Assembly (NCBI GenBank): GCA_963717515.1
Contig: OY970338.1
Location: 1,236,861-1,300,860 of the forward strand
Length of the DNA: 64,000 bases
Reading direction: 5' to 3'
DNA from: an uncultured Candidatus Woesearchaeota archaeon
Lineage (GTDB): Archaea; Nanobdellota; Nanobdellia; Woesearchaeales; DSVV01
Shown here one piece after another: positions 19,034 through 63,905 of this stretch (positions are counted from its first letter, which is position 1; each line of letters begins with the position of its first letter). The position numbers were made by a program, and so were the translations under genes. The notes under the pieces were generated by a model, which saw nothing but the letters and a program-made list of their open reading frames with translations, did no database searches and was not told the origin of the DNA.

Positions 19034-21031
19034 CTAGATATCATGGATGTTTTCCAGCCTTATCATGAAATCGACAAATCCGCTCATATCGTCCCTGTTC
19101 TGCTCAAGCGGTTCGGTCCTTATATCGACATGGCCGCCGAGCCTCTTCCAGTTCTCGATGCCTTTTATAGTCTGCTCAAAGCTCCCTCTTACCTGAGTAA
19201 TCTCATCATGAAAATCCGGCAGATGGCTGAACAGCTGGACTGAAATCCTATGCAAGCCAGTCCTTCTTAATTCTTTGCAGTATCTTTCAATTGACAGCAT
19301 TCTGGCGTTGGTATATAATATCACGTCAAGTCCAGCATCTTTCAGCCCCCTAATTATCAAAAACAGTGAATTAACCAGTGTCGGTTCCCCTCCACTTAAT
19401 ATGATTGTGCTGTATCTTCTCTTCAGATTTTTCATTTCTCCCACTATCTTGTCATAATTCCATATCTCATCAGCACAATCGTCAAAATATGACTTATTGT
19501 TGGATGATCTGATGAGATTGATCGTCTTTTGGGTCTTTTTCTTCATGTCACTATATCCTTTTAGAACGTATTGATATGCCTTCTGCTTGTCCCTGAACCT
19601 TTCAAATGCATAAAACAGCTCATAGGTGTTTGACCTGTAGTAGTCCTCTCCTATCTTCTTAAAAATGTTGAATAATTTTTTTAACTTGATGTTCCTGTAT
19701 GACTTCACAGTTTTCAGCTCTTCCCATGAATGGCCGCCGATCTCGTCATACGCGAATTCTCCGCTTGTCAGATGCCTGTGAGAGCCTACCCTGGAACGGA
19801 TCTTTATCCCGAACCTTTCCGGGTGCAGGAAAATCTCGGATTTTACAAGATAAAAATCACACACGTTCATCTGGTCGATGAAATCTATATTCTGAAGTAT
19901 GAAATCAAACGTGTCTTCAAAATCTTCCTCTGTTTCCTGCGGCAGGCCCACGATGATGTTCAATGAGACCCACATTCCGCATTCATGGGCCTTCTGGACA
20001 GCTTTCTTTGCAATATCGGATGTGTATCCCTTCCTTATCTTCTTGAGCATCCTGTTGCTTGCTGTTTCCAGCCCGAATGTGATATAGAACAGCCCGGACT
20101 TTCGCAACGGCGGCAGCAATCCTGTGTCAATATTGCATCTTGCGCTTCCGCACCACAAGAAATCCAGACCCTGCCTCACCATCTCCTGCGAAAGCTCCAG
20201 GGTTTTTTTTGTGTCAATCTCAATATAAGAGTTCAGGACAAAGAAGTATCTTGAATCGAATTTTTCAGACAACGCCTTCATCTCTTTTACAGTATTATCG
20301 ACGCTCTTGATGACCGGGGGCGGGCTGTCGCCTATGGAAGCACCGCAGAATGAGCACCTGTACGGGCAGTTCATCGACCAGAGGTAAGGTATTATGAATA
20401 TCCTGCCGGGGTTTCTGTAATAATAATATTCCGGTACATTCCTGTAACAATCAAAAGGGAGTCCTGTAAAATCAGGCATGGGTTTCGGAAAATCGCCGTC
20501 ACATCCCGTATCGTCATGGTCCTCACCCTTGATAAGCCTGAGTAATTGCCTTTCTCCCTGGCCTATAATCACTTCATCTATGAAATCGAATCTCTCTTTA
20601 AGGTCGCTGGTTGCGCTTTCTCCGCCAAATATTATCTTTGTCTTCTCGTCTCTGTCTTTGATACTCTTTGAGATCAACAATGCGTAATCCTTGGAAGAGC
20701 CTTCAATGATGGAGAATCCGATGGCGTCAAACCCTTCATAGTCAAGCTTGCTCAGCATAATTCCGGTCAGCTCATCCAGGATGGGGCTGGTCTTCCTGTC
20801 AAGAAGATAGTCTTCAAGCTCTTGTTGTGAATAGCTTTGCTGCAGCGACAACAACCTGATATAGCTTCTCTTATCACATATGAATCTTATCTCAAGATCG
20901 TCAAGGACTGATTTGTGGCCATGCATATTAAGATATGATGAGATATGGGCAATGCCTAACGGCGGTATCGAAATCAGACCCACTCCTTCATTGACAAAGT
21001 TCCTGGGCGGCATGACTAATTTTATTCTCAT
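19034..21031 (-). CDS. B12-binding radical SAM enzyme fused to a C-terminal rSAM-like domain lacking the cluster cysteines
   Basis: N-terminal cobalamin-binding-type domain (MRIKLVMPP...PPLGIAHISSYL), then rSAM CPYRCSFC. The C-terminal 190 aa or so align to the short rSAM paralogs (GGEPTL, YTNARML) but have SNNKSYFD where the paralogs have CNNRCIFC. Confidence 0.85.
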   Translation of the reverse strand: MRIKLVMPPRNFVNEGVGLISIPPLGIAHISSYLNMHGHKSVLDDLEIRFICDKRSYIRLLSLQQSYSQQELEDYLLDRKTSPILDELTGIMLSKLDYEGFDAIGFSIIEGSSKDYALLISKSIKDRDEKTKIIFGGESATSDLKERFDFIDEVIIGQGERQLLRLIKGEDHDDTGCDGDFPKPMPDFTGLPFDCYRNVPEYYYYRNPGRIFIIPYLWSMNCPYRCSFCGASIGDSPPPVIKSVDNTVKEMKALSEKFDSRYFFVLNSYIEIDTKKTLELSQEMVRQGLDFLWCGSARCNIDTGLLPPLRKSGLFYITFGLETASNRMLKKIRKGYTSDIAKKAVQKAHECGMWVSLNIIVGLPQETEEDFEDTFDFILQNIDFIDQMNVCDFYLVKSEIFLHPERFGIKIRSRVGSHRHLTSGEFAYDEIGGHSWEELKTVKSYRNIKLKKLFNIFKKIGEDYYRSNTYELFYAFERFRDKQKAYQYVLKGYSDMKKKTQKTINLIRSSNNKSYFDDCADEIWNYDKIVGEMKNLKRRYSTIILSGGEPTLVNSLFLIIRGLKDAGLDVILYTNARMLSIERYCKELRRTGLHRISVQLFSHLPDFHDEITQVRGSFEQTIKGIENWKRLGGHVDIRTEPLEQNRDDMSGFVDFMIRLENIHDI

Positions 21032-23341
21032 CTATATCTTCTCCGCAACCCGCTCTTTTCCCACAAAGAACAGCAAGTACGCGAACATCTCGATCTCATC
21101 CATCTTATTGATCCAGAATCCATCTTCATCCTCAGACAGGACTCCGAGCGCCTTGAGCGCCATAACTGCATGACTGAAATCCCTGCCAGGATTTCTGCCG
21201 AACCGAGACAAATAATCCACTTTATATAATCTGAACCCATGGACGAGATTGTTGACTATGTATTTAACTTTTTCGAAGTCCTTTGAATAGCTTGTAGCAT
21301 AATTAACCATTGCAGCTTCATTTGTCGGGAATTTTTTCAGGAAAATATGCTTATTGGAACCTTTGTTCATTATCTTGTAATCCAGGGAATAGGGTATAAT
21401 TGGGTTGGCATAGTAACCCAGCCCGAATACAGCATGCTGGTCGGAGCTGTGATGAAAATATTTGTACCGGCAAGGAGGCCTATAATTCTTGTTGAAGAAC
21501 TGTGTCGGATGGATGAATCCTAGCGTTTCATGGGCTTGCGCCCTGAAGCCTGCTTCATCAGCAATCCTGAATATGTCCCTTGAGACTGATTCATGGAGCT
21601 TGAAATAGAATTCATTGAACTTTTCAAGCGATTTGTAATTCTTGGTTATGTATTCCATATCAGTCATGATGGGATAGATGAATATTGAGTCAGGCCCGAA
21701 AGCTGCCAATTTCCTGAATGAACGGATGAATGCATCTTTATTATCACCCTTTAAGCCCAGAACAAGATCTGCATTCTTGGTCTGGATGCCTGCAACTCCC
21801 ATATCGTGCAAGGCATTCTTGACTGAGTCTATGTCCTGCACTGACCTGTTGTTCAGCCTTAGGACTTCTTCTGAGAGCGACTGAACGCCGATTGAAACTT
21901 TGTTGAATCCGATCTCTTTTGCTGTGCTGAGCTTTTCCAACGATGAAGTGCCGGGGTTGAATTCAATCACTTTCTGTGAGCTCTTATGGAATGCGAACCT
22001 GGAGAACAATCTGCCGAACAACACCTTCATCTGCAGGACAGAGAGAAGCGAGGGTGTCCCTCCCCCTGCATAGAACGACCTGAATTCCACGCCTGAAAAT
22101 ACTTCCGAGTACTCGTCTATTTTCCTCATCAGGTACTTAACATATCTATCCATGCTCCTGCTGTCATAGCCTGTGGAGGGGTAAATACAATATGAGCACA
22201 TGCTTGTGCAGAAGGGTATGCTCAGATAGAAATCATACTGGATCTTGCCGTCATTGTTTTCCTGTATGAACTTTTTCCATGCATCCCTGACTTGCCCTTC
22301 GCTCAGCTCCCCTATGTCCTCTCTCAGGAACATATCATGGATTGTTTCGAAGCTGTTCCTGAAATCCACCTTTTCCTGGACATTTTTGTAAAATTCAAGC
22401 TCAGCCTGATACTGTTCCCTGTTTCTGTTCTCACCATATTTTGTTGATTTCGATACCGGCTTGAGCTCATCGAACCCGTACAGCTTCACGTATCCTTCAA
22501 ACAGCCCGCCGCAGACAGGGTCATATATGCAGTCCTTGCATGCTTCTCCCTTTATCTTGCCGTCCTCGACGTGCCTTACCCTGCTCCCGCTCTCGCGCTC
22601 AAGCTCCCATCGGCTGTCCTTGAGCAAAAGCTCACCGCAGCAGTCTTCATAACCTCTCAAAAAACACGGTGGGATAGAGCAGCCTGTGAATGAGAAGCCC
22701 ATGCCATTCTTCCTACAGTAGTCAAGTGCATTCCTGAGATAAGGGACTGCTTCTGATATCTTAGGGACTATCCATCTGTTCTTCCAGGCATTGCCCGCAG
22801 GCATGACAAATGAGAATGTGATATGCAGCTTTCCGAACTTGTTGTAGATGAACTTCACAAACTCAAGGATTTCCTTGTAGTTCTCCTTGTTTATCACAAA
22901 GCTTATGTCAGTCCGGATGCCCGTATCGACGAAACTGCTTATGGCTCTTGTGCTCTTATCAAACCCACCAGGCACCCTGGTCAGCCTGTCTGATACCTCT
23001 TTTTTATGGGAATGAAGAGATACAAGGACATTATCGATACCTGATTCTTTTACTTTTTCTGCAAAACCAGGGATGGATGCCACAAGCCCGTTTGTGCAGA
23101 GAGTTATCTTCGACGGTTTTCTTTGCCTGACCAACCTGGCAATCCGGAAAAGGTTTCTGCTGATGGTCGGTTCTCCGCCATCAATCACTACTTCTGTCCC
23201 TTTTTCAATAGAGCTGATGGTCTTTATCAGCATGCCAATAGAAGGGTCTGTCCTGTTGACATCCTCTCTGTCATAGGAACAGAACAGGCAGTTCTGGTTG
23301 CAGAGTTCAGTCAGGAACAATTGCTTTATTGATCTTTTCAA
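21032..23341 (-). CDS. Tandem double radical SAM protein: short 'CNQNCLFC' rSAM with C-terminal Cys module, fused to a HemN/HemZ-like rSAM
   Basis: Domain 1 has ELCNQNCLFCS, DGGEPT, IPPCFLRGYEDCC and CKDCIYDPVCGG. Domain 2 has IPFCTSMCSYCIYP and FYAGGGTPSLL, typical of oxygen-independent coproporphyrinogen-oxidase-like enzymes. Confidence 0.85.
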   Translation of the reverse strand: MKRSIKQLFLTELCNQNCLFCSYDREDVNRTDPSIGMLIKTISSIEKGTEVVIDGGEPTISRNLFRIARLVRQRKPSKITLCTNGLVASIPGFAEKVKESGIDNVLVSLHSHKKEVSDRLTRVPGGFDKSTRAISSFVDTGIRTDISFVINKENYKEILEFVKFIYNKFGKLHITFSFVMPAGNAWKNRWIVPKISEAVPYLRNALDYCRKNGMGFSFTGCSIPPCFLRGYEDCCGELLLKDSRWELERESGSRVRHVEDGKIKGEACKDCIYDPVCGGLFEGYVKLYGFDELKPVSKSTKYGENRNREQYQAELEFYKNVQEKVDFRNSFETIHDMFLREDIGELSEGQVRDAWKKFIQENNDGKIQYDFYLSIPFCTSMCSYCIYPSTGYDSRSMDRYVKYLMRKIDEYSEVFSGVEFRSFYAGGGTPSLLSVLQMKVLFGRLFSRFAFHKSSQKVIEFNPGTSSLEKLSTAKEIGFNKVSIGVQSLSEEVLRLNNRSVQDIDSVKNALHDMGVAGIQTKNADLVLGLKGDNKDAFIRSFRKLAAFGPDSIFIYPIMTDMEYITKNYKSLEKFNEFYFKLHESVSRDIFRIADEAGFRAQAHETLGFIHPTQFFNKNYRPPCRYKYFHHSSDQHAVFGLGYYANPIIPYSLDYKIMNKGSNKHIFLKKFPTNEAAMVNYATSYSKDFEKVKYIVNNLVHGFRLYKVDYLSRFGRNPGRDFSHAVMALKALGVLSEDEDGFWINKMDEIEMFAYLLFFVGKERVAEKI

Positions 23342-25150
23342 TTACATCACCGAGCTTGTCGAATACAGGATATATCTCTTTATGGCTGAACACTTCTGCA
23401 TAATTTTCCGGCACCCCGAAACATATCTTCTTGAGCGTGCAGACCGAACACGGCTCATAGAAATTGTTCTGGCGCACCCCGTCATGGCTCATGTTGTCGT
23501 CGAAATGGAGATATGAACTTTTTGTGTTCCTTACTATCTCCATGGATGGCGCGGAATATTCCTCGTATCCCCTGAGATAGCAGAGCGGCATCCTGTCGAC
23601 GACAGCCTTCAGCCTGTTGTTTTTAATGTATTCCAGTGCCCTGTAGACCCCTAGCTCTGAATCGCTCATCTTCACGAGTGGCTCCATGTTCTTTTTCGCC
23701 TGGTTCACAGGGTCTATGAAAATGAAGTTGAACATGCCCATGTCAGGATATCTCTTGTGCAGGAACCTTACATGCTCAAGAAGGTGCTTATGGTTGTATG
23801 AACATATGACTATGCCGAAACTGAGCTTCTCTCTTTTCCATGAATGTATGCTGTCCATCGCCTTCAATGCAAGGCCGTAATCCTTTGCAGAGCCTGTTAT
23901 GGTCTCATAGAGCTTCCTGTCTGATGCATGGAACGAGACGAGAAAGTCGATATCAAAGGCGTCAATGAGGCGCTTGAAAAAGCTCCTGCTCGACAGCAGG
24001 GTGCCGTTTGTCTGTAGGATAATCTTATGGATGCCTTTTTGTTTGCAGTAATTCAGAAATTTCGGCAGGTCTTTGTTGAGAGTAGGCTCTCCGCCTGTCA
24101 GGGTCAGATTCGTAGCACCTCTCATGATTGCGTAATCAAGCTTTTTTTTAGCTCGGAAAAAGGCATTGTCGTATTGTCGCAAGTAACAGAGCAAAATGCA
24201 CATTTCTGATTGCACCTGTTGTCTATCTGGAGGATGATATGGTCCTGCTTCTTGAGCCTGGGCACAAGCTCCTTGTCGCCGTGAATATTGATATAGTTCT
24301 GGTTCAGCCCGGGGCACCTGGGCTCAAGCTCGCATTCAGAGCACACGTCCGGCTTTGAATAATAGTTGGCCCTCCTGTTTATGCTCCCTTCCTCGAGCAG
24401 ACCTGTGAATGACGGCTCGTCGAATGCCTCTCTCCTGACCTCGCTGCAGTATTCCTCGAAGCCAGGCAGGAAACAGAGCGGGACAAACTCGATCCTGAAT
24501 CCCATGCCCCTGTCCAGGATGTACTGGAATGCCTCGAGCATATGGGGCTTTGCATCAGTGAGCCTTGGCACTATCCACTTGTTCTTCATGGCGTTATTCG
24601 TGGGGTCGACAAAATTATAGCTGAAATGCCTGATATGCGGAAAATTCTTTTCTGAAAATATCACCATGTCCTGAAGATCCCTGTAGTTCAGCGCATTGAT
24701 GACAGTCGTGAAATACGCATGGATCCTGTATTTCTCCACATTCTTCACACCTCTGCAGAACTGGTCAAAATCTCCGTCCCCCCGGGAAAGCTTTGGAAAT
24801 ATATCTTTTTTATTGGTATGATAGGAGATGTCGAACTTGTCAAGCCCTGACTTGATATATGCCTTAAGCAGTTTTTCATCATGGAGCCTGGAGGCATTTG
24901 TCTGCACAGAGACCTCTTCAAATCCCTGGGCCTTTGCATACCTGATGAGTTCTGGCAGGTCATCCCTGAGAGTGGGCTCTCCGCCTGTGAACATCACTTC
25001 TGTCACATCCTCTTTTTTGAGGTCGTCGATTGTCTTTTTTGCCTCTTCAAATGACAGCTCTGCATCCGAGTTCGGTGCTGAGCAGAACACGCAGTCCTGG
25101 TTGCACTTCCTGCTGACCTGCACAGTCCCAAGCACATGCCTTTTTTTCAT
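23307..25150 (-). CDS. Tandem double radical SAM protein interrupted by a -1 frameshift at an A8 run (track ORFs 24122..25150 and 23307..24317)
   Basis: Domain 1 has RKCNQDCVFCS, FTGGEPTL, VPLCFLPGFEEYC and CSECELEPRCPG. Domain 2 starts in the same frame (DNRCNQKCAFCS...MPFSELKK) and continues only in the -1 frame (KLDYAIMRGATNLTLTGGEPTL...MPLCYLRGYEEY...CSVCTLKKICFG). The Cys-motif to GGEPT spacing across the shift is 30 aa, against 32 aa in domain 1. Confidence 0.75.
24142..24149 (-). other. A8 homopolymer (T8 on the plus strand) at the frameshift point; A-AAA-AAA-type slippery run
   Basis: The minus strand reads gag cta aaa aaa agc ttg. Shifting -1 after the lysine codons gives aag ctt gat tac, which restores the second rSAM domain. 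Confidence 0.8.
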
Positions 25151-27516: not shown

Positions 27517-27667
27517 TGACTGGTGAATATCAGCATATCTTATAAAACTTTGGGATTAGATGTTTGTATTTCAAAAAGATTTAAATATTTCCCGTGATTT
27601 TACCATTTTCATGCCAGACGTGTCTATGCAGGGAAACCTGGAGATAAACAAGAAAGAGGGGTTTGTG
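27517..27667. promoter_or_regulatory. Divergent promoter region between the rSAM operon and the Hxs-like genes
   Basis: TTTAAATA at 27590-27597 faces the plus strand. TTTTATAAGATA on the minus strand (about 27537-27548) lies roughly 20-32 nt upstream of the minus-strand ATG at 27516. A GAGGGG SD-like motif precedes the ATG at 27668. Confidence 0.3.
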
Positions 27668-28319: not shown

Positions 28320-28324
28320 TGAAG

Positions 28325-30661: not shown

Positions 30662-30761
30662 ATAATGAATTATAATTTTTTCAAAATTATTAGATTTACC
30701 ACTTTGTAGGGGTATTAATTTCGAAACATTTATAAATTATTAAATATTATTAGTAAAAATA

Positions 30762-31838: not shown

Positions 31839-31883
31839 CTTTCTCATTTTCTATTTTATCATAAAGTTTATTTTTTTAATAAA

Positions 31884-33077: not shown

Positions 33078-33127
33078 AATATAAAATACAATAATGTTTA
33101 TATAATTTGCTTAATTCTGATATCATA

Positions 33128-54717: not shown

Positions 54718-54792
54718 TCGGATTTAAAGTCTGGTTATATAGAAGAATATTTATAGGTTTGGGAATATGCATCCCTGAGTCAGACATTGAAA

Positions 54793-55971: not shown

Positions 55972-56006
55972 AAAGGTATATAAATTTTGATTCAATCACC
56001 CTATAC

Positions 56007-58069: not shown

Positions 58070-59464
58070 ATGGCAGAAGTATTGCTTATCCAGCCTTCGG
58101 TGTCTTACGATGAGAAGGCCAACCGGTCGAATATAAGGCCCCCTCTCGGAATACTTAACCTGGCTGCGCCGCTTGTTGAAATGGGTTATAAAGTTAGGAT
58201 TCTTGACCAGAGAGTCGTGGATGACTGGAAGAGAGAACTGCTGCAGGAATTAAGAAAAGGGCCGATTTGTGCGGGAATCAGCTGCATGAGCGGGAACCAG
58301 ATAAGATTCGCGCTGGAACTGAGCAGGTTCATTAAGAAACATTCAGAAATCCCTGTTGTTTGGGGCGGGGTGCATCCCACACTCGAACCTGTTTCGACAA
58401 TATCCTGCGAGGATATTGATATTGCGGTTATCGGCGAGGGGGATTATGTTTTTCCTGATATAGTCAGGGCATTGGATGACAGGGAAGATCTGAGTAAAAT
58501 CAGAGGAATTGCCTACAAGACACACGGAAAAATCAGGAAGACAGGACCCTCTCCAAAAATCGTTCTTGACAACCTTCCGAGGCTACCTTTCGAACTGATT
58601 GATTTTCAGGATTACAGGCAAAAGAACACTTTCTTCGGATTTGAGAGCGACATGATCGCTCCTCTTGAGACAAGCAGGGGCTGTTCGCACAGGTGCAGCT
58701 TCTGCTTCCAGTCAAAGCAGCCGACAGGATGGAGAGGGCAGAGCGTTGGCAGGATGATTGAGGATATAAGAAATGTGGTCGATAGATACAAGATAAATTC
58801 ATTCACGTTCAATGATGACAATTTCTTTGTCGATATGAAGAGGATTGAAGATTTTTCAAGCAAATTGAAATTAGAGAGGCTTGATATCGAATGGTACACA
58901 AGCATCAGGCCTGAAGTTGTAAGCAGAATAAATTTTTTTAATGACCTGAAAAATATCGGATTGAAATCATTGACAATAGGAATTGAATCCGGCTCTGAGA
59001 AGATATTGAAGATGATAAGAAAAGGCGCAGGAGTCCCTGATTTTCTGCAGGCAAACAGGATTCTGAAAAAGGAAGGGATATTGCCCCTGTACTGTGCAAT
59101 ACAGGGATTTCCATATGAAAATCTTGAAGATATAAAAAAAACATATGGGTTAGTGGTGAAATTGATCAGAGAAAACAGGAAATGCAGGGTGAGCCTGTTG
59201 AAACTTATTCCTACTCCGTCAACAGAGATCCTTAATATGTGCGTCAGTAAAGGCTTCAACAAACCGGAGACGCTTGAAGAATGGTCAAAGGTCATTGATA
59301 CTCATTATAAAAAATCAGCCCCTTGGGTCGATGATGAGGTTGAGGAGTGGATTAACCGGAGCAGGTTTTTCAATAAGTTCCTTGCGATGAGGAATGAGGG
59401 GACCTTACTGTCCGGAATTGCATATAGTATCTCTGCGGCACTCCTGAAACAGGGTATTGGGTGA
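58070..59464 (+). CDS. B12-binding radical SAM enzyme
   Basis: N-terminus EVLLIQPS...PPLGILNLAAPL, rSAM SRGCSHRCSFCFQS and AIQGFPYENLED. Confidence 0.85.
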   Translation: MAEVLLIQPSVSYDEKANRSNIRPPLGILNLAAPLVEMGYKVRILDQRVVDDWKRELLQELRKGPICAGISCMSGNQIRFALELSRFIKKHSEIPVVWGGVHPTLEPVSTISCEDIDIAVIGEGDYVFPDIVRALDDREDLSKIRGIAYKTHGKIRKTGPSPKIVLDNLPRLPFELIDFQDYRQKNTFFGFESDMIAPLETSRGCSHRCSFCFQSKQPTGWRGQSVGRMIEDIRNVVDRYKINSFTFNDDNFFVDMKRIEDFSSKLKLERLDIEWYTSIRPEVVSRINFFNDLKNIGLKSLTIGIESGSEKILKMIRKGAGVPDFLQANRILKKEGILPLYCAIQGFPYENLEDIKKTYGLVVKLIRENRKCRVSLLKLIPTPSTEILNMCVSKGFNKPETLEEWSKVIDTHYKKSAPWVDDEVEEWINRSRFFNKFLAMRNEGTLLSGIAYSISAALLKQGIG

Positions 59465-59470: not shown

Positions 59471-60574
59471 TCATCTGAAGAATTTTTTTATGCTGGAGAT
59501 TACATGCTGAACTTCGTCTTCTGAGAGGAACGGGTTGACAGGGATTGAAAGGACGCTTTCTGATGCCTTTTCGCTGACAGGAAAATCTCCGTTCCTGTAT
59601 CCGAGGTCCTTATAGGTATTTGTCAGGTGGACAGGGGTTGGGTAATGTACACCTGTTTCAATATTCTTTTTGCCGAGGAACTTCCTGAGCTTGTCCCTCC
59701 TGTCAGTCCTTATCACAAAATTCCTGAAGACATGATAGGTTTTTTTGTCGATGCCTGGCAACATCAATGGCAATCCTTCAAGCTCTTCCGAAAATATCTT
59801 TGCAATCTCTCTCCTTCTTTCAGTCCAGTCACTCAGGTATCTCATCCTGCATTTGATGAAAGCTATCTGGACCCAATCAAGATATGCGGGAGTCCTGAGG
59901 CTTTTGAGGAGCAAAGGGTCATTAGATGTAGGATTTCTCAAGGTTTCGATCTTTTTGCTTAGTCCCCTGTTTTTTAGAATGGCCATTCCCCCGTTGCTTA
60001 TTCCGCCGAGTCCTTTGTTCGGGAAGAAGCTATAGCATGCTGAATCAGAGTATGTTCCCGGAAGTTTCCCGTTATATCTTGCTATATGCGCCTGGCAGGC
60101 GTCCTCGACAGTAAAGAGATTATGTTTTTCTGCGATTTTATTGATCTTTTTCATGTCTGCCATCTGGCCGTAGAGATGCACAGGCATGATTGCTCTTGTC
60201 TTATCCGTGATGCTGTCCTCAATTTTCTCATTATCGATAAGCATCGTATTATCATTGACGTCGACAAGAACAGGTTTTGCGCCTGTATTCGAAATGGAGA
60301 GGAGTGTGGCAATGTATGTATTTGGGACTGTAATCACCTCATCACCTTTACCTATACCAAGGCATGCAAGAGAGAACTGGAGTGCAGCAGTGCCGCTTGA
60401 AAGACCTATTGCATGGCCTCTTCCAAGGATTCTGCCTATCTTTTTCTCGTTTTTATACTGGTAGCTGAAAAGATCGGGGTCTGAATCAAGAGAAAGGACC
60501 TTGCCTAGTTCATTCCTGATATCTGTTTCCAGAAACTTATTCTGTCTTTTGTAATTGTTGAATGATACAATCAT
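59471..60574 (-). CDS. DegT/DnrJ/EryC1/StrS-family PLP-dependent aminotransferase
   Basis: 367 aa with GDEVITVPNTYIAT, TVEDACQAH and YSFFPNKGLGGISNGGMA (PLP lysine context). Confidence 0.8.
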   Translation of the reverse strand: MIVSFNNYKRQNKFLETDIRNELGKVLSLDSDPDLFSYQYKNEKKIGRILGRGHAIGLSSGTAALQFSLACLGIGKGDEVITVPNTYIATLLSISNTGAKPVLVDVNDNTMLIDNEKIEDSITDKTRAIMPVHLYGQMADMKKINKIAEKHNLFTVEDACQAHIARYNGKLPGTYSDSACYSFFPNKGLGGISNGGMAILKNRGLSKKIETLRNPTSNDPLLLKSLRTPAYLDWVQIAFIKCRMRYLSDWTERRREIAKIFSEELEGLPLMLPGIDKKTYHVFRNFVIRTDRRDKLRKFLGKKNIETGVHYPTPVHLTNTYKDLGYRNGDFPVSEKASESVLSIPVNPFLSEDEVQHVISSIKKFFR

Positions 60575-60683: not shown

Positions 60684-61727
60684 ATGAACAGAATCCAAAA
60701 AACACAATACAGGCTGAACTATATCAAAAAGCAGACATTGGGACGCCTGGTTGATACTCCAAAGCCGCATGCAATAATCCTATCAGTAACATCGAAATGC
60801 AATCTAAGATGCAGACACTGCAGCATTTGGAAAAATAAGGAGCGCAGCCTGCCTGAAAAAGATGCTGAGAAAATAATACTGGGTCTCAGGGAATGGACAG
60901 GACCTTATCACCTGACGATAAGCGGCGGCGAACCATTGCTTAAGAAAGACCTGGCTGCACTCGTTAAGCTTGCCTCTGATAATGGAATCCAGACAGCTTT
61001 ATCTACAAATGGAGTGCTATTGACCAGGGAAATCCAGGATGAAATCTTCGATGCAGGCCTTGACCTGGTTCTTGTCTCGCTTGACAGCACTAGGCAGGAA
61101 GTCCATGACAAAATCAGGGGAGCTCCGGGAACTTTCGAATCTCTCATACGTAATATTGAAAATTCAGATTATAGCTCCAGGATTGTTATCCAGACGGTGA
61201 TATTCAAAGATAATCCTGAAAATATCCCTGAGTTGGTCGAATGGGTCAGGAAGATGGGATTTTTGGGCATTGAATTCCAGGCATTGGTCCCAACATTCGG
61301 TGAGAATGTTGACATGGAAAAATGGTACAGGCAAAGCGACCTGTGGCCTGATGATGCAAATAAAATCAACAATCTCATTGACAAGCTGGTCAAGATGAAA
61401 AACTCGGGCTATCCTGTTTTGAATTCCCGGGCCCAGTTGGAAATGTTTAGGCAGTATTTTATGGATCCGCTAAGCAAAGTCGCTGGCAGGACATGCGCAA
61501 TAGGGACAGGCACATGCCAGATTACAGCTGACGGGAAAATTGTCCTGTGCAACTATAAATATGCTGTCAATGACTGGTCCGAGGAAGGACTGAATTATTT
61601 ATGGGGGACAGGAAAGTTCAGCTCAGCAATTGAAGATATAAGGAAATGTAATAAGCCCTGCCTATTGCTGAACTGTTATTATAATGAAGGTGTCCTGTCA
61701 GGATTGCTCAACCGATTTAGGGGGTAA
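60684..61727 (+). CDS. Radical SAM/SPASM enzyme
   Basis: Contains VTSKCNLRCRHCSIW and ISGGEPLL. The C-terminal Cys pattern is CAIGTGTCQITADGKIVLCNY ... CNKPCLLLNC. Confidence 0.85.
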   Translation: MNRIQKTQYRLNYIKKQTLGRLVDTPKPHAIILSVTSKCNLRCRHCSIWKNKERSLPEKDAEKIILGLREWTGPYHLTISGGEPLLKKDLAALVKLASDNGIQTALSTNGVLLTREIQDEIFDAGLDLVLVSLDSTRQEVHDKIRGAPGTFESLIRNIENSDYSSRIVIQTVIFKDNPENIPELVEWVRKMGFLGIEFQALVPTFGENVDMEKWYRQSDLWPDDANKINNLIDKLVKMKNSGYPVLNSRAQLEMFRQYFMDPLSKVAGRTCAIGTGTCQITADGKIVLCNYKYAVNDWSEEGLNYLWGTGKFSSAIEDIRKCNKPCLLLNCYYNEGVLSGLLNRFRG

Positions 61728-61729
61728 CA

Positions 61730-63001
61730 TCAATAATACATTATCCTTGAGTCCCCATTATTCTTCTGGATATCCTGCAGGATATTGACGCGCCTTGTCT
61801 TTTCTGTCCTGCTGATCTTGTCTTTAAACTTTGATGCTTTGGTATCCTTCCTGTCGCTGTACGTGTTGATGAACACCCCTGAGAATATTGTCTCTTCAAG
61901 CAACCTGGCACTTTTCAGGAAGTCTTCCTCGGTCTCGCCTGGAAATCCTGCGATTATAGCAGTCCAGAACTTTATTTTTGGAGCTGCATCCTTAATTTTT
62001 TCCAGGCATTCTTTTACATCTTCAATCCTGTATCCACGGTTCATCTTCTTCAGGATCCTGTTGCTACCTGACTGGATAGGAACATGCATCTTCCTGATCC
62101 TGTCTGGGTATTTTCTCAACAATTCAAGTATTGCCTGGAAATGCTTGATAAGGCCTTCAGGATTAAGGGAGCCGATGGAGATATTATAGCTGCCTTCCTG
62201 CTCGAGCAGTCTTTTTAGAAGTTCAGCAATATTTGTGTCGATGTCTGAGCCATAGTAGGCTGTGTCGTCGCCACAAACTACAAAATCACGATATCCGGCT
62301 TTATAGGCTGAGTTGAAATCCTTGATAATGTCATCGATCTGTCTGCTTTTGACATCTCCTATGGCCGTGTGTTCGATGCAGTAGCTGCACATCCCTGGAC
62401 AGCCGACAGAAACTTTGAGATAATGCACGTTTTCCTGTCCAGTTTCAGGTGTTGAATAATAACTGCCTATGAACCTCAGGATTTTAGGTATACTCAGTTT
62501 TTGAAGAAATTTCCTAATGCTCAGTATGTCTGCCCTTGCATTGAAGTAAAAAACATGGATCTCTCTATTAAGGGCATTCCTGAAAGCAATATCCCCTTCC
62601 AACGGAAAATTCACAAAACCGGCCGGTTCTGGAAATGAAGCTATATGTTTATCAGCGGATATAAGTTCATCAAACTTTTCCAGCTCTCTTGGCGATATTG
62701 GACTGACATCATCCCATCCTTTATTGAATTCCGGTTTTATTTTCGGCAGGCATCCGATAACGATTATCCTTGTTTTCTTGCCTTTCCTTGAATGATAATA
62801 TTTTATGGTGCGTTCGGCAATGTCCTGCGGCTCTTCTCCGTTTGCACAGGTATTGATGATTAACATATCTGCCTTTTTGAAATCTTCAGTCTTTTCAAGG
62901 CCATTTGCCTGGAGATAATCATTGATCTTCATGGCCTCGACATTTCTTGGGACACAGCCGATTGCAGAACAGATATAATATGATTTCATTTTGGAAGACA
63001 T
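61730..63001 (-). CDS. MiaB/RimO-like methylthiotransferase-family rSAM without a recognisable TRAM domain
   Basis: UPF0004-type N-domain (YYICSAIGCVPRNVEAMKINDYL...ADMLIINTCA) and rSAM SVGCPGMCSYCIEH. The track ORF extends to 63139, but the ATG at 63001 leaves a TATA-containing divergent gap. Confidence 0.7.
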   Translation of the reverse strand: MSSKMKSYYICSAIGCVPRNVEAMKINDYLQANGLEKTEDFKKADMLIINTCANGEEPQDIAERTIKYYHSRKGKKTRIIVIGCLPKIKPEFNKGWDDVSPISPRELEKFDELISADKHIASFPEPAGFVNFPLEGDIAFRNALNREIHVFYFNARADILSIRKFLQKLSIPKILRFIGSYYSTPETGQENVHYLKVSVGCPGMCSYCIEHTAIGDVKSRQIDDIIKDFNSAYKAGYRDFVVCGDDTAYYGSDIDTNIAELLKRLLEQEGSYNISIGSLNPEGLIKHFQAILELLRKYPDRIRKMHVPIQSGSNRILKKMNRGYRIEDVKECLEKIKDAAPKIKFWTAIIAGFPGETEEDFLKSARLLEETIFSGVFINTYSDRKDTKASKFKDKISRTEKTRRVNILQDIQKNNGDSRIMYY

Positions 63002-63071
63002 GTTGTTTATCCAATCAAGTATCCAAGGGGATATAAATAAGTTTTTATATACCAGATGGTTAAGATGATGC
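63002..63071. promoter_or_regulatory. Bidirectional TATA-containing intergenic region
   Basis: ATATAAATAA (63031-63040) and TTTTTATATA (63042-63051) each lie 21-39 nt from the divergent ATGs at 63001 and 63072. This suggests near-leaderless transcripts. Confidence 0.3.
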
Positions 63072-63905
63072 ATGAGAAAACCTAGTGTCAGTGTTATAAT
63101 ACCTGCACTCAATGCTGAAAAGACAATATCATCCTGCATTGCTTCGGTTCTTGATCAGGATTATCCGCATGATAAATATGAGATAATCGCGGTTGATAAC
63201 GGCTCGACAGACAGGACAATGGAATTGTTGAAAGGTTTTGATGACAGAATCAGTATCTTCTGCGAACCAATCATCGGCTCTTATAATGCAAGGAACAGGG
63301 GCATCAGGGATGCAGATGGTGATTTTCTGCTGTTCATTGATTCAGACTGCCATGCTGAGAAAGACTGGATCAGCCATATGGTAAGGCCGTTTGAAAACAG
63401 GGATATCAGGATAGTCAGCGGAAAAATTAGGGCAGCGTCAAGAAAAAAAATTGTCCAGAAATACTGCGACCTCTTCTGCCATGACCAGGCAGCCTATTTT
63501 AGGATTAACATGGCAGCGACTTCCAATATGGCTGTGAGAAGAAATGATATGCTGTCTGCAGGCATGTTCAACGGGAAACTCTTATCAGGGGGGGATTTTG
63601 AGCTGTGCAGGAGGGTCATAAGAAAATCGGGAGAACTGCATTATGAAAAGGAAGCTGTTGTCCATCATCATTATCCTGGTTCAATATTAAATCTGTTAAA
63701 AAAATGTTTCACATACGGGAAGTGGAATGTAATCATCAACAGCAAGCAGGGATTCAGGGCAGACGCAATCAGTTACAGAAGAATTTCCAGGCACGGACTT
63801 GATTTTTTATTGATCCGGTTCTGCCAGGACATGTCGTTTAAGGCAGGCCTTATTGCAGGCAGGGTCAGCCTGAAATGGAATAAATTCAATCAATCACGAA
63901 CCTGA
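63072..63905 (+). CDS. GT2-family (GT-A) glycosyltransferase
   Basis: Contains VSVIIPALNAEKTI, AVDNGSTDRT and FIDSDC (DxD-type). Confidence 0.8.
   Translation: MRKPSVSVIIPALNAEKTISSCIASVLDQDYPHDKYEIIAVDNGSTDRTMELLKGFDDRISIFCEPIIGSYNARNRGIRDADGDFLLFIDSDCHAEKDWISHMVRPFENRDIRIVSGKIRAASRKKIVQKYCDLFCHDQAAYFRINMAATSNMAVRRNDMLSAGMFNGKLLSGGDFELCRRVIRKSGELHYEKEAVVHHHYPGSILNLLKKCFTYGKWNVIINSKQGFRADAISYRRISRHGLDFLLIRFCQDMSFKAGLIAGRVSLKWNKFNQSRT

What the first reader, a model, noticed from the sequence alone, without database searches (positions are those of the whole stretch)
19034..63139. Radical SAM supercluster: 21 CxxxCxxC motifs in 19 loci within about 44 kb
**Motifs read directly from the translations**
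- CPYRCSFC
- CNQNCLFC
- CTSMCSYC
- CNQDCVFC
- CNQKCAFC
- CNNNCLFC
- CNLKCIYC
- CNWACSHC
- CNNRCIFC
- CNNRCLMC
- CDNRCSFC
- CCYNCFYC
- CNNNCPDC
- CNINCIFC (pseudogene)
- CIFNCFYC
- CPNRCGFC
- CNLNCIYC
- CNMQCDMC
- CSHRCSFC
- CNLRCRHC
- CPGMCSYC

**Classes**
- 6 B12-binding.
- 4 SPASM.
- About 9 short paralogs with a PxC...CxxCxxxxxC C-terminal module.
- 1 HemN-like.
- 1 MiaB-like.

**Why it matters**
- Roughly half of all coding capacity in this stretch is rSAM.
- That density is far beyond ordinary RiPP or cofactor clusters.
- In what looks like a small archaeal genome it implies a major, unknown anaerobic radical chemistry programme.
Basis: partly seen in the sequence, partly recalled or inferred. 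Interest (0 to 1): 0.85.

Follow-up and report, generated by a model that had tools for sequence, protein, structure and literature searches.

The report
Archaeal His-Xaa-Ser radical SAM supercluster
A 45-kb stretch of a DPANN (Woesearchaeota-like) archaeal genome packs 19 radical-SAM genes around an archaeal version of the His-Xaa-Ser (HXS) system, which in E. coli matures a secreted repeat protein that blocks phage DNA entry, so it is a greatly expanded variant of a known but barely understood system.

Summary
All 21 CxxxCxxC motifs are present in 19 loci. Nineteen lie in PF04055 domains above threshold and two lie in sub-threshold radical-SAM-like domains. Radical-SAM ORFs fill about 55% of 19034-63139, against none in the first 19 kb.

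The centre is a His-Xaa-Ser system: HxsD, an HxsD-like mini-protein, HxsB (TIGR03978, above cutoff) and a 299-aa secreted HxsA with 64 HxS triplets. The "short paralogs" are HxsC-type enzymes: six full and two truncated domains, all below curated HxsC cutoffs. Some are fused to HemN-type or B12-type radical-SAM domains.

Relatives in Woesearchaeota, Nanoarchaeota and Iainarchaeum MAGs carry the same core with similar density (3-6 radical-SAM ORFs per 10 kb). The supercluster is therefore a clade trait.

Chimerism is unlikely. Two independent short-read contigs match at 99.99%, and relatives join genes from all GC compartments. However, 30.7-48.7 kb is a low-GC island.

One "two-gene" pair is a single 614-aa protein split by a homopolymer error.

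Best reading: multi-enzyme radical maturation of HxsA, probably with glycan decoration, for the cell surface. The function is inferred, not shown. This is a new variant of a known kind.

The parts
16126..17241 (+). Archaeal A24-type (prepilin-peptidase-like) membrane protease; candidate leader peptidase
   Evidence: Pfam Arc_PepC 23.7 bits (cutoff 23.4) and Peptidase_A24 23.0 bits (below 26.5). Homologues lie directly beside HxsD/HxsB in L002, L004, L006, L007 and L012.
17396..19012 (+). PMT_2 (GT-C family) membrane glycosyltransferase
   Evidence: PF13231 30.5 bits. PMT_2 proteins flank the HxsC-type operon in L017, L019 and L020.
19034..21031 (-). 665-aa fusion of a B12-type radical SAM (CPYRCSFC) with a C-terminal HxsC-type domain that has lost its cluster cysteines
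   Evidence: PF04055 128.5 bits in 2 stretches, PF02310 27.4 bits. TIGR03977 HxsC matches residues 521-658. Alignment A1. Orthologous 675-aa fusion in L019.
21032..23341 (-). 769-aa fusion of an HxsC-type domain (CNQNCLFC) with a HemN-type (class C-like) radical SAM (CTSMCSYC)
   Evidence: PF04055 in 2 stretches. NF006067 152.9 bits over residues 366-739 and TIGR03977 102.4 bits over residues 6-282. The same fusion occurs in L019 (809 aa) and in reversed domain order in L017 (813 aa).
23307..25150 (-). One 614-aa tandem double HxsC-type radical SAM (CNQDCVFC + CNQKCAFC), split in the window by a 1-nt homopolymer difference at about 24142-24149
   Evidence: Logan contig L001 is 99.993% identical with A9 versus A8 and encodes an intact 614-aa protein. 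TIGR03977 169.7 bits in 2 stretches.
25147..25659 (-). 170-aa conserved protein of unknown function
   Evidence: No Pfam or NCBIfam hit. 52% identical orthologue in the same position in L017 and L018.
25661..26626 (-). 321-aa conserved Cys-rich protein (weakly DUF483-like) with no solved structural relative
   Evidence: PF04467 24.3 bits (cutoff 25). About 80 clusters, all 'hypothetical' and Woesearchaeota-labelled. AF2 pLDDT 93.8, best PDB Foldseek E = 0.16. Syntenic in L017, L018 and L021.
26623..27516 (-). 297-aa HxsC-type radical SAM (CNNNCLFC), divergently paired with HxsD; the most conserved member
   Evidence: PF04055 74.5 bits. NF038332 HxsC4 166.9 bits (cutoff 500) and TIGR03977 87.4 bits (cutoff 267.9). 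2221 homologues, best 60-86% identical in Woesearchaeota/Nanoarchaeota MAGs. AF2 pLDDT 96.2, radical-SAM fold.
27560..28129 (+). HxsD
   Evidence: TIGR03976 45.1 bits (cutoff 50) covering 3-86 of 90 profile positions. The precomputed Pfam hit PF27806:HxsD is on the identical Logan gene.
28104..28319 (+). 71-aa HxsD-like mini-protein
   Evidence: NF038315 HxsD_rel 56.4 bits (cutoff 41). Conserved as a 75-aa gene in L017 and L018.
28319..29704 (+). HxsB, SPASM-type radical SAM maturase (CNLKCIYC)
   Evidence: TIGR03978 433.7 bits (cutoff 370), full length.
29762..30661 (+). HxsA: 299-aa secreted His-Xaa-Ser repeat protein. It has a conserved leader, a hydrophobic segment at residues 24-43, a putative AxA site, 64 HxS triplets and a Gly/Asp/Cys tail
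   Evidence: NF038313 HxsA4 96 bits (cutoff 55) and NF038309 HxsA3 N-domain 40.4 bits (cutoff 65). Leader alignment with six DPANN HxsA proteins. Tandem DNA repeats of 72 bp x3.4 at 97%. The mature part is 87% Ser/His/Gly.
30762..31838 (+). 358-aa protein with a weak transglutaminase-like core; first gene of the low-GC island
   Evidence: PF01841 22.3 bits (cutoff 23). GC3 0.23.
31884..33077 (-). GT4-family glycosyltransferase
   Evidence: PF00534 70.7 bits.
33107..34249 (+). SPASM radical SAM (CNWACSHC)
   Evidence: PF04055 88.4 bits, PF13186 31.8 bits.
34188..35126 (+). HxsC-type radical SAM (CNNRCIFC)
   Evidence: PF04055 92.5 bits. TIGR03977 122.9 bits, below cutoff.
35120..36175 (-). 351-aa unknown protein sharing the CxxCxYLxRKxC motif with 46844-47410
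   Evidence: No family hit. The motif was read from the translations.
36226..37116 (+). HxsC-type radical SAM (CNNRCLMC); highest HxsC score but an orphan-like sequence
   Evidence: TIGR03977 155.1 bits (cutoff 267.9). Only 8 homologues, at most 32% identical.
37158..37781 (+). Class I SAM-dependent methyltransferase
   Evidence: PF13847 73.7 bits.
37782..39317 (-). B12-binding radical SAM (CDNRCSFC)
   Evidence: PF02310 39.3 bits, PF04055 57.4 bits.
39310..40743 (-). B12-binding protein with a divergent radical SAM domain (CCYNCFYC)
   Evidence: PF02310 42.7 bits, PF04055 only 17 bits. TIGR04190 134 bits, E = 6e-39.
40893..41858 (+). Nitroreductase fused to a truncated HxsC-type radical SAM N-half (CNNNCPDC)
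   Evidence: PF00881 71.5 bits, PF04055 24.2 bits (below 29.5). Alignment A1.
41869..43314 (-). TPR-repeat protein with an N-terminal membrane anchor
   Evidence: TPR families. Homologues next to HxsA in L002 and near HxsD in L021.
43359..44849 (-). Radical SAM pseudogene (CNINCIFC) with five in-frame stops of all three kinds and no frameshift
   Evidence: With stops masked, PF04055 scores 52.3 bits. Identical in the independent Logan contig.
45226..46791 (+). Phosphoribosyltransferase fused to a PQQ-like beta-propeller
   Evidence: 61% identical orthologue beside the Hxs core in L002.
46844..47410 (+). 188-aa Cys-rich unknown protein
   Evidence: No family hit. 51% identical orthologue next to PepA24-HxsD in L002, and a fused form in an L006 radical SAM.
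47407..48693 (+). B12-rSAM-family radical SAM (CIFNCFYC) without a detectable B12 domain
   Evidence: PF04055 79.1 bits. Best NCBIfam hits are HpnJ, KedN5 and PhpK.
48763..50280 (+). Second PMT_2 (GT-C) membrane glycosyltransferase
   Evidence: PF13231 54.8 bits.
50327..51760 (+). B12-type radical SAM (CPNRCGFC)
   Evidence: PF04055 78.6 bits, PF02310 28.3 bits.
51757..53139 (-). CapK/PaaK-like adenylate-forming ligase
   Evidence: NCBIfam FlxY, DVU1553 and PaaK hits. PF27533 CapK_C on the Logan gene. Homologue near HxsD in L021.
53206..54717 (-). 503-aa unknown protein
   Evidence: No family hit.
54787..55971 (+). SPASM radical SAM (CNLNCIYC)
   Evidence: PF04055 87.4 bits, PF13186 33.9 bits. 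38% identical homologue near HxsD in L021.
55944..57152 (+). ATP-grasp ligase
   Evidence: Homologue in L021.
57156..58067 (+). SPASM radical SAM (CNMQCDMC)
   Evidence: PF04055 56.2 bits, PF13186 33.5 bits.
58070..59464 (+). B12-binding radical SAM (CSHRCSFC)
   Evidence: PF02310 55.0 bits, PF04055 70.7 bits.
59471..60574 (-). DegT/PseC-type sugar aminotransferase
   Evidence: PF01041 301.6 bits. TIGR03588 179 bits.
60684..61727 (+). SPASM-like radical SAM (CNLRCRHC)
   Evidence: PF04055 89.4 bits, PF13186 18.4 bits (below cutoff).
61730..63139 (-). MiaB/RimO-family methylthiotransferase (CPGMCSYC). It has an N-terminal hydrophobic extension and no match to the TRAM end of the profiles. It may not belong to the system
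   Evidence: TIGR00089 271.2 bits (cutoff 251), matching profile positions up to 364 of 429.
63072..63905 (+). GT2 glycosyltransferase
   Evidence: PF00535 105.2 bits.

Best explanation
The stretch is the gene neighbourhood of an archaeal (DPANN, Woesearchaeota-like) His-Xaa-Ser system whose radical-SAM complement has been greatly expanded.

**Core layout (shown).** Two back-to-back operons are separated by 43 bp.
- Plus strand: HxsD, HxsD-like, HxsB, HxsA.
- Minus strand: the HxsC-type 297-aa enzyme, two conserved unknowns (321 and 170 aa), a double HxsC-type enzyme, an HxsC-type+HemN-type fusion and a B12-type+HxsC-type fusion. This operon ends at a PMT_2 glycosyltransferase and an A24-type peptidase.

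**Proposed mechanism (inferred, by analogy with E. coli HXS, PMC13128918).**
1. HxsA is made with a conserved about 48-residue leader.
2. HxsD and the HxsD-like protein dock it to HxsC-type enzymes.
3. HxsB and the several HxsC-type, HemN-type and B12-type radical-SAM enzymes install covalent modifications on the 64 His-Xaa-Ser repeats. These are probably one-carbon or cross-link modifications.
4. The leader is removed and the Ser/His/Gly-rich product is exported.
5. It is probably O-glycosylated by the PMT_2 enzymes, using sugars tailored by the flanking DegT, ATP-grasp, CapK-like, GT and radical-SAM genes.
6. The result would be a surface or pseudo-periplasmic polymer.

Its role (virus exclusion as in E. 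coli, metal binding or host attachment) is not determined.

The low-GC block (30.7-48.7 kb) and the 48.7-62 kb block add further HxsC-type, B12 and SPASM enzymes. Members of the 48.7-62 kb block's families also sit next to the HxsD/HxsC-type pair in the closest relative found.
For: **Component identity**
- HxsB, HxsA4 and HxsD_rel are above curated cutoffs, and HxsD is just below.
- All short paralogs best-hit HxsC or HxsC4.
- They share CNxxCxFC, GGEPT, PxC..GYE and CxxCxxxxxC. The last motif parallels the second-cluster CxxC that is needed in E. coli HxsC.

**Operon structure**
- Gene gaps run from -35 to +57 nt, and a 43-nt divergent spacer separates the two core operons.

**Fusions linking the enzyme classes (Rosetta-stone logic)**
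- HxsC-type domains are fused to HemN-type and B12-type domains here.
- L019 has the same fusions, and L017 has the HemN fusion in the opposite domain order.

**Conserved synteny**
- L017 and L018 carry HxsA-HxsB-75aa-HxsD | HxsC-type-321-170-HxsC-type-HemN fusion-PMT_2.
- L019 has 12 motifs in 21 kb.
- L006 has four HxsC-type genes plus an 18-HxS HxsA.
- L021 has ATP-grasp, two B12-rSAM genes, a CapK-like gene, a TPR gene and a SPASM gene beside HxsD.

**Substrate**
- Only one leader-bearing substrate exists in the window, and there is almost no intergenic room for other precursor genes.
- The E. coli modification is +8 Da, described as +C/-4H on an HxS motif. That is compatible with the methylase-type (class B and class C) domains recruited here.
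Against: - No HxsC-type domain reaches the curated HxsC (267.9) or HxsC4 (500) cutoffs.
- The 297-aa enzyme is unusually conserved (up to 86% identity). Its closest solved folds act on a nucleoside (BlsE), lipids (GDGT-MAS) and nucleotides (viperin) as well as peptides (SkfB, SuiB), so a non-peptide substrate is not excluded.
- In L021 the HxsD/HxsC-type pair lacks HxsB and HxsA within the stretch seen.
- GC3 shows three compositional compartments, so the parts were not assembled together.
- Many strand switches in 30-64 kb argue against co-transcription.
- HxsA lacks the peptidoglycan-binding domain of the E. coli effector and has 64 rather than 5 repeats.
- No expression or chemistry data exist.
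Confidence: 0.6

Rival explanations
1. The stretch is a mosaic of independent systems. Only HxsD, HxsD-like, HxsB, HxsA and one HxsC-type gene form the His-Xaa-Ser system. The remaining radical-SAM genes belong to one or more cell-envelope glycan or lipid tailoring pathways (with GT4, GT2, PMT_2, DegT, ATP-grasp, CapK-like and a methyltransferase). These happen to accumulate in the same variable 'surface' region.
For: - There are three GC3 compartments, with a sharp drop right after HxsA.
- Strand switches are frequent in 30-64 kb.
- Sugar-pathway genes are abundant.
- The low-GC HxsC-type gene 36226-37116 is orphan-like, with homologues at most 32% identical.
- The structural neighbours of the 297-aa enzyme include the nucleoside- and sugar-modifying BlsE and DesII.
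- L002, a Woesearchaeota relative, has the Hxs core with only one radical-SAM gene.
Against: - HxsC-type domains occur in all three compartments and are physically fused to B12-, HemN- and nitroreductase-type domains.
- The closest relative, L021, places the ATP-grasp, CapK-like, B12 and SPASM families directly beside HxsD.
- High radical-SAM density recurs around the Hxs core in several lineages.
Confidence: 0.3
2. The contig is a chimeric assembly. Sequences of two or more related DPANN organisms were joined at the HxsA repeat, inflating the apparent cluster.
For: - GC3 falls from about 0.6 to about 0.25 exactly at the end of HxsA.
- Both independent short-read contigs break inside the HxsA repeat, at 30058 and 30392. 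The join itself is therefore not independently confirmed.
- Low-GC relatives such as L002 (GC 0.34) carry the same core.
Against: - Both Logan contigs come from the same run (ERR11571143) and match the window at 99.99%.
- One contig ends with the N-terminal part of HxsA and the other begins with its C-terminal 90 residues.
- The second compositional boundary (48.7 kb) lies inside a single independent 36-kb contig.
- Proteins from the high-GC part and from the low-GC island are recorded on contig(s) of 1,838,930 bp.
- L002 and L021 place homologues of genes from different compartments side by side.
- Even if split at HxsA, each half would still be exceptionally rich in radical-SAM genes.
Confidence: 0.05
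3. The stretch holds several classical RiPP natural-product clusters, whose small precursor peptides were not recognised.
For: SPASM and B12 radical-SAM enzymes best-hit RiPP maturase families such as SbtM, ACGX, PapB, ApyD and the TIGR03975 C-methyltransferases, all below cutoff.
Against: - Intergenic gaps are nearly all under 110 nt. The only larger ones are 149 and 376 nt.
- No second leader-like or repeat-rich ORF is detected.
- No RiPP recognition-element, protease-transporter or cyclodehydratase genes were found by Pfam or NCBIfam.
Confidence: 0.1

Closest known systems
HXS antiphage system of E. coli/Klebsiella (HxsD-HxsB-HxsC-HxsA; TIGR03976-03979; Li et al., Nat Commun 2026, PMC13128918)
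   Same: - It has an HxsB-type SPASM radical SAM (above the equivalog cutoff), an HxsD-family small protein and an HxsC-type radical SAM with a second CxxC cysteine module.
- Its substrate carries an N-terminal export or leader region followed by His-Xaa-Ser repeats.
- All of these genes are adjacent.
   Different: - The host is archaeal (DPANN), whereas the paper reports 99.7% of systems in Pseudomonadota.
- Gene order is C | D-D'-B-A instead of D-B-C-A.
- There are 64 repeats instead of 5, and they are Ser/Gly-rich rather than basic.
- HxsA has no peptidoglycan-binding domain.
- There are 8 HxsC-type domains, some fused to HemN-type, B12-type or nitroreductase domains.
- There is an extra HxsD-like protein.
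- PMT_2, an A24-type peptidase and two unknown proteins are conserved neighbours.
- No HxsC-type domain passes the HxsC cutoff.
- The function is untested.
NCBIfam 'rare' His-Xaa-Ser variants (HxsA3 NF038309, HxsA4 NF038313, HxsD_rel NF038315, HxsC4 NF038332)
   Same: - HxsA passes the HxsA4 cutoff and matches the HxsA3 N-terminal domain.
- The 71-aa ORF passes the HxsD_rel cutoff.
- The 297-aa enzyme's best hit is HxsC4.
   Different: - The HxsC4 score is 166.9 against a cutoff of 500, so the 297-aa enzyme is not a member.
- The HxsA4 match rests mostly on the repeats.
- These models name single proteins. They do not describe the multi-radical-SAM expansion or its fusions.
Multi-radical-SAM RiPP or protein-maturation clusters (for example polytheonamide, or SCIFF/anSME-type SPASM maturases)
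   Same: A leader-bearing ribosomal substrate is processed by SPASM/twitch-type and B12-type radical-SAM enzymes.
   Different: Such clusters carry 1-3 radical-SAM genes. This one has 19 loci (22 domains) in 44 kb, and its substrate is a 299-aa repeat protein rather than a short peptide.
Archaeal and bacterial surface-glycan gene clusters with radical-SAM tailoring enzymes
   Same: GT2, GT4, PMT_2 (GT-C), a DegT aminotransferase, an ATP-grasp ligase and a CapK-like ligase are interleaved with SPASM and B12 radical-SAM genes at 31-64 kb.
   Different: These genes are centred on, and in relatives contiguous with, HxsD and an HxsC-type gene. The HxsC-type paralogs are interspersed among them.

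Membership tests
Radical SAM superfamily (PF04055) | CxxxCxxC motif lying inside a domain that matches the PF04055 profile above the gathering score | tested here: met
   Met for 19 of 21 motifs. The other 2 (39310-40743 and 40893-41858) are sub-threshold but radical-SAM-like by NCBIfam. The AF2 model of the 297-aa member has the radical-SAM fold.
His-Xaa-Ser (HXS) system | HxsB: TIGR03978 equivalog score at or above 370 | tested here: met
   433.7 bits, full length, for 28319-29704.
His-Xaa-Ser (HXS) system | HxsC: TIGR03977 at or above 267.9 bits (or HxsC4 NF038332 at or above 500) | tested here: not met
   The best single-domain TIGR03977 score is 155.1 (36226-37116). The 614-aa double protein scores 169.7. 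The best HxsC4 scores are 176.7 (the 614-aa double protein, two stretches) and 166.9 (the 297-aa enzyme). HxsC or HxsC4 is nevertheless the top hit for every short paralog.
His-Xaa-Ser (HXS) system | HxsD: TIGR03976 at or above 50 bits, or HxsD_rel NF038315 at or above 41 bits | tested here: met
   27560-28129 scores 45.1 bits, just below 50, but carries a precomputed PF27806 HxsD hit. 28104-28319 scores 56.4 bits, above 41.
His-Xaa-Ser (HXS) system | HxsA: an exported protein with tandem His-Xaa-Ser repeats, encoded next to the maturases | tested here: met
   64 HxS triplets. NF038313 scores 96 bits against a cutoff of 55. It has a hydrophobic segment at residues 24-43 and lies 57 nt downstream of HxsB.
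His-Xaa-Ser (HXS) system | Canonical architecture D-B-C-A with a peptidoglycan-binding domain in HxsA (PMC13128918) | tested here: not met
   The order is C(-) | D, D-like, B, A(+). There is no Pfam domain in HxsA. Archaea lack peptidoglycan.
His-Xaa-Ser (HXS) system | Antiviral function by blocking DNA entry, and a +8 Da modification on an HxS motif | not testable with these tools
   This needs genetics and mass spectrometry. PADLOC 2023 has no model for it and gives only weak pVip cross-hits.
Class B (B12-binding) radical SAM | N-terminal PF02310 domain plus a PF04055 domain | tested here: inconclusive
   PF02310 is above cutoff in 37782-39317, 39310-40743 and 58070-59464. It is sub-threshold in 19034-21031 and 50327-51760, and absent in 47407-48693. 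No specific NCBIfam family cutoff is reached.
SPASM/twitch radical SAM | PF13186 at or above 21.5 bits (C-terminal auxiliary-cluster domain) | tested here: met
   Met for 33107-34249, 54787-55971 and 57156-58067. 60684-61727 scores 18.4 bits. The HxsC-type domains have a 4-Cys PxC..CxxCxxxxxC module not matched by PF13186, and the model aligns with SkfB and SuiB.
MiaB/RimO methylthiotransferases | TIGR00089 at or above 251 bits; UPF0004 + radical SAM + TRAM domains | tested here: inconclusive
   TIGR00089 scores 271.2 bits and UPF0004 48.1 bits, but the match stops at profile position 364 of 429, so the TRAM end is not matched. There is a 57-aa hydrophobic N-terminal extension.

The most novel reading that the evidence does not exclude
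The whole neighbourhood of about 45 kb (16-62 kb) is one pathway, conserved in Woesearchaeota-type DPANN archaea. It would convert a ribosomally made His/Ser/Gly repeat protein into a heavily radical-modified and O-glycosylated extracellular polymer, with one-carbon bridges, methylation and cross-links. This would be a new class of archaeal envelope material, serving as an antiviral DNA-entry barrier or a host-attachment matrix. The HxsC-type/HemN-type/B12-type fusions would encode the still-unknown chemistry behind the +8 Da HXS modification.
Probability: 0.2. Interest if true: 0.85.

Novelty: new variant of a known kind. Interest (0 to 1): 0.62.

Why it matters
**Reach of the system.** The His-Xaa-Ser system was a bioinformatic orphan until 2026. 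It was then shown in E. coli to block phage DNA entry, and it was reported as almost exclusive to Pseudomonadota. Its radical chemistry (+8 Da on an HxS motif) is unsolved. This locus shows that DPANN archaea carry a recognisable version.

**What is different here.** The substrate is amplified to 64 repeats. The HxsC-type enzyme is multiplied and fused to methylase-type (HemN-like and B12) radical-SAM domains. The locus is conserved with a GT-C glycosyltransferase, an A24-type peptidase and two proteins of unknown fold.

**What this offers.**
- Natural 'Rosetta-stone' clues to the chemistry.
- A substrate with many identical sites, which is convenient for mass spectrometry.
- A candidate surface or antiviral system in episymbiotic archaea, whose envelope biology and virus defence are poorly known.

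**Scale.** About 55% of 44 kb devoted to radical-SAM enzymes is also among the densest such neighbourhoods one is likely to meet.

Tried and rejected
- **Stop-codon recoding in the pseudogene.** All five interruptions are in frame, but they are TAA, TAG and TGA mixed. This is decay, not recoding.
- **Recent in-situ duplication.** Rejected: paralogs are 20-37% identical.
- **Additional HxsA-like substrates.** An HMM of the DPANN leader and an HxS density scan find only 29762-30661.
- **Mobile-element borders for the low-GC island.** There is no tRNA at the borders, no convincing direct repeats and no integrase.
- **Defence-system models.** PADLOC gave only weak viperin cross-hits to radical-SAM cores.
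- **Exact look-up of several window proteins.** It failed for 28319-29704, 37158-37781, 37782-39317 and 58070-59464, even though identical DNA is present in the Logan contigs. I treat this as an index limitation, not as evidence.
- **Sequence and fold searches for the 321-aa protein.** They found nothing in the PDB.
- **Literature searches.** Searches for archaeal or DPANN Hxs systems and for radical-SAM superclusters found nothing beyond the E. coli paper.
- **A class III (pilin-type) signal in HxsA cut by the A24 peptidase.** I considered this, but the leader lacks the usual [KR][GAS] cleavage site before the hydrophobic stretch. It is kept only as a possibility suggested by gene adjacency.

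Full report

A six-frame scan of the window finds 27 CxxxCxxC motifs. The remaining six lie in frames of 10-83 codons and give the chance background, about one per 10 kb over six frames.

Pfam places 18 of the 20 intact ORFs in PF04055 above the gathering score. The pseudogene also scores 52.3 bits once its stops are masked. Two ORFs are sub-threshold:
- 39310-40743 scores 17 bits, but TIGR04190 B12/rSAM gives E = 6e-39.
- 40893-41858 scores 24.2 bits and is a truncated domain fused to a nitroreductase.

Radical-SAM ORFs cover 24.2 of 44.1 kb, or 55%. Density is 4.1 motif-bearing ORFs per 10 kb, against zero in window 1-19033.

The class breakdown is essentially right: six B12-type, four to five SPASM-type, one HemN-type and one MiaB/RimO-type. 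B12 and SPASM domain calls are above Pfam cutoffs for only part of each class.

**2. Corrections to the gene models**

The ORFs 24122-25150 and 23307-24317 are one gene. An independent Logan assembly of run ERR11571143 is 99.993% identical over 13.4 kb. It differs only by A9 versus A8 at about 24142-24149, and it encodes an intact 614-aa protein with two radical-SAM domains. The frameshift is most simply a homopolymer error in the window.

The locus at 43359-44849 is a true pseudogene. It has five in-frame stops (TAA, TAG, TGA, TGA, TAG) and no frameshift, and it is identical in the independent contig.

**3. What organises the cluster**

NCBIfam identifies the following:
- 28319-29704 is HxsB (TIGR03978, 433.7 bits, cutoff 370).
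- 29762-30661 is a His-Xaa-Ser repeat protein (HxsA4, 96 bits, cutoff 55), with an N-terminal match to the HxsA3 domain.
- 27560-28129 is HxsD (45.1 bits against a cutoff of 50), and the identical Logan gene carries a precomputed PF27806:HxsD hit.
- A 71-aa ORF at 28104-28319 is an HxsD-like protein (NF038315, 56.4 bits, cutoff 41).

None reaches either cutoff; the best single-domain scores are 155 and 167 bits.

Alignment shows six full-length HxsC-type domains: 769N, 614N, 614C, 297, 312 and 296. They share CNxxCxFC, GGEPT, PxC..GYE and CxxCxxxxxC. There are also two truncated domains:
- the C-terminus of the 665-aa protein, which has lost the cluster cysteines;
- the C-terminus of the nitroreductase fusion.

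The domains are only 20-37% identical to one another, so they are old paralogs and not a recent burst.

HxsA has a conserved leader (PKIKKKxxxFLLSEEGKISKQ) and a hydrophobic segment at residues 24-43. An AxA-like site precedes a conserved HSNSxSxSY motif. These are followed by 64 HxS triplets and a Gly/Asp/Cys tail. The mature part is 87% Ser/His/Gly. Its DNA contains near-perfect 72-bp and 45-bp tandem repeats.

No second leader-bearing or HxS-rich ORF exists in the window. Intergenic space is almost nil.

**4. Organism and relatives**

The window starts with an archaeal ribosomal-protein operon (L32e, S4e, L5e/L18, L3, L4). Window proteins from both the high-GC part (26623-27516, 25661-26626) and the low-GC island (36226-37116) are recorded in NCBI/ENA sources, each with a longest contig of 1,838,930 bp.

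A species-level genome scan with HxsB found 12 loci. Ten carry DPANN labels: Woesearchaeota at 59% identity, Nanoarchaeota, Nanobdellota, Iainarchaeum, Aenigmatarchaeota and Nanohalarchaeota. The other two are MAGs labelled Methanosarcinales.

Comparison of those loci and of four more contexts gives the following:
- L002 has unk188-PepA24-HxsD-HxsB-HxsA-TPR-PRT/propeller contiguous. It carries only one radical-SAM gene.
- L017 and L018 (the HxsC-type 297 is 77% identical) have HxsA (29 HxS)-HxsB-75aa-HxsD | HxsC-type-321-170-HxsC-type-HemN+HxsC-type (813 aa)-PMT_2.
- L019 (Woesearchaeota) has HxsB-HxsA (18 HxS), two multi-motif radical-SAM fusions, PMT_2, four HxsC-type genes, an HxsC-type+HemN fusion (809 aa) and two B12+HxsC-type fusions. 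That is 12 motifs in 21 kb.
- L006 (Iainarchaeum) has four HxsC-type genes and an 18-HxS HxsA.
- L021 is the closest relative found (297-type 86% identical, GC 0.47). It has ATP-grasp, two B12 radical-SAM genes, a CapK-like ligase, a TPR protein, a SPASM gene (38% identical to 54787-55971) and a flippase directly beside HxsD | HxsC-type-321.

Radical-SAM density in these loci is 3.2-5.7 ORFs per 10 kb, comparable to the window. The supercluster is thus an extreme instance of a clade-wide trait. Genes from all parts of the window are neighbours of the Hxs core elsewhere.

**5. Chimerism**

GC3 is 0.54-0.66 up to HxsA, 0.23-0.44 from 30.7 to 48.7 kb, and 0.41-0.57 thereafter.

Two independent Logan contigs from the same run cover 6986-30058 and about 30392-66500 at 99.99% identity. 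Both break inside the HxsA tandem repeat. One contig carries the N-terminal part of HxsA and the other its last 90 residues. The second compositional boundary lies within a single contig.

Together with the synteny above, this makes a chimera unlikely; I put it at about 5%. The junction across the repeat itself is not independently confirmed.

The low-GC block is best read as an island acquired from a lower-GC DPANN relative. One of its genes, 36226-37116, has only 8 homologues, at most 32% identical. No tRNA, att-like repeat or integrase marks its borders.

**6. How it most likely works**

[quoted passage not shown] The mature protein carries a +8 Da (+C/-4H) modification on an SHRSS motif. 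HxsC binds HxsD, and the second-cluster CxxC of HxsB and HxsC matters. Mature HxsA acts in the periplasm to stop phage DNA entry (PMC13128918).

By analogy, and using the anatomy here, I infer the following steps:
1. The leader of HxsA is recognised through HxsD and the HxsD-like protein.
2. HxsB and the set of HxsC-type enzymes modify the repeats.
3. The HemN-type (class C-like) and B12-type (class B) domains take part in the same chemistry. They are covalently fused to HxsC-type domains, in two different domain orders in different lineages. This is plausibly one-carbon transfer.
4. The product is exported and the leader is removed.
5. The conserved PMT_2 glycosyltransferases may O-glycosylate its many serines, using sugars tailored by the flanking DegT, ATP-grasp, CapK-like, GT and radical-SAM genes.

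What is shown:
- the family assignments of the components;
- the operon geometry;
- the domain fusions;
- the conserved synteny.

What is inferred:
- the substrates of the extra enzymes;
- the chemistry;
- export;
- the biological role.

The AF2 model of the 297-aa enzyme (pLDDT 96) is a standard SPASM/twitch-type radical-SAM fold. Its neighbours act on a nucleoside (BlsE), lipids (GDGT-MAS), peptides (SkfB, SuiB) and nucleotides (viperin). Structure therefore does not settle the substrate.

The main rival is that only the five core genes are 'Hxs' and the rest are envelope-glycan or lipid tailoring pathways that gather in a variable surface region. I give it about 30%. It is partly compatible with the main reading.

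**7. Comparison with the known, and novelty**

The core is a member of the His-Xaa-Ser system for HxsB, HxsA and the HxsD-like protein. It is a near miss for HxsD and a non-member by curated score for HxsC.

It differs from the characterised system in these respects:
- domain of life;
- gene order;
- repeat number (64 versus 5) and repeat composition;
- absence of a peptidoglycan-binding domain;
- eight HxsC-type domains;
- fusions with methylase-type radical-SAM domains;
- conserved partners: PMT_2, an A24-type peptidase, and 321-aa and 170-aa proteins.

The 321-aa protein has a confident model (pLDDT 93.8) with no PDB neighbour.

The literature held here contains no description of archaeal Hxs loci or of such radical-SAM neighbourhoods in DPANN. 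The E. coli paper reports 99.7% of systems in Pseudomonadota.

I class this as a new variant of a known kind, of moderate to high interest (0.62). It is a striking, conserved and unexplored elaboration that could help crack the chemistry of HXS maturation.

Noticed in passing
window 24142-24149: An A8 homopolymer (T8 on the + strand) is one base shorter than in an independent short-read assembly (A9). This splits a 614-aa double radical-SAM gene into two overlapping ORFs. It suggests the window comes from a long-read assembly with residual homopolymer errors.
   Followed up: yes
window 43359-44849 (-): This radical-SAM pseudogene is interrupted by five in-frame stops of all three kinds and by no frameshift. 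It is identical in the independent assembly. The downstream pieces (84 aa, 52 aa) may be separate small genes that happen to share the frame.
   Followed up: partly
window 25661-26626 (-): This 321-aa protein is conserved in Woesearchaeota-type MAGs (about 80 clusters). It has invariant cysteines (C149, C150, C203, C207) and a confident AF2 model (pLDDT 93.8) with no significant PDB structural match. It is always next to the HxsC-type 297-aa gene.
   Followed up: partly
window 30700-48700: This 18-kb low-GC island (GC3 0.23-0.44, against 0.54-0.66 upstream) starts immediately after HxsA. No tRNA, integrase or flanking repeats were found. It contains orphan-like genes as well as genes that neighbour the Hxs core in L002 (TPR, PRT-propeller, the 188-aa protein).
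   Followed up: partly
window 61730-63139 (-): This MiaB/RimO-family methylthiotransferase has a 57-residue hydrophobic N-terminal extension and no match to the C-terminal (TRAM) end of the family profiles. It may not be a tRNA-modifying enzyme.
   Followed up: no
window 46844-47410 (+) and 35120-36175 (-): Two unknown proteins share a C-terminal CxxCxYLxRKxCxG motif. The 188-aa one has a 51% identical orthologue beside PepA24-HxsD in L002, and a fused counterpart inside a 651-aa radical SAM in L006.
   Followed up: partly
window 45226-46791 (+): This is an unusual fusion of a phosphoribosyltransferase (PyrE-like) domain with a PQQ/BamB-like beta-propeller. It is 61% identical to a gene beside the Hxs core in Woesearchaeota MAG L002.
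   Followed up: no
window 11718-11815 (+): A 98-nt tRNA (Rfam 57 bits) for which ARAGORN reports a four-base anticodon loop call 'ctat'. It is probably an intron-containing archaeal tRNA.
   Followed up: no
window 6369-10370 (-): Several ribosomal proteins are much longer than their Pfam domains: L22 is 281 aa with the domain at 24-143, L4 is 335 aa and S3 is 270 aa. This implies lineage-specific extensions.
   Followed up: no
window 29928-30665, both strands: Long ORFs antisense to, or out of frame with, the HxsA repeat (223 aa and 228 aa) are artefacts of the codon-periodic repeat. They are not genes.
   Followed up: yes
L017 4191-5486 (GCA_964590935.1): In a close relative, an AAA_14/DUF4143 ATPase gene is inserted between HxsB and HxsA. 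This shows that the core locus tolerates insertions.
   Followed up: no
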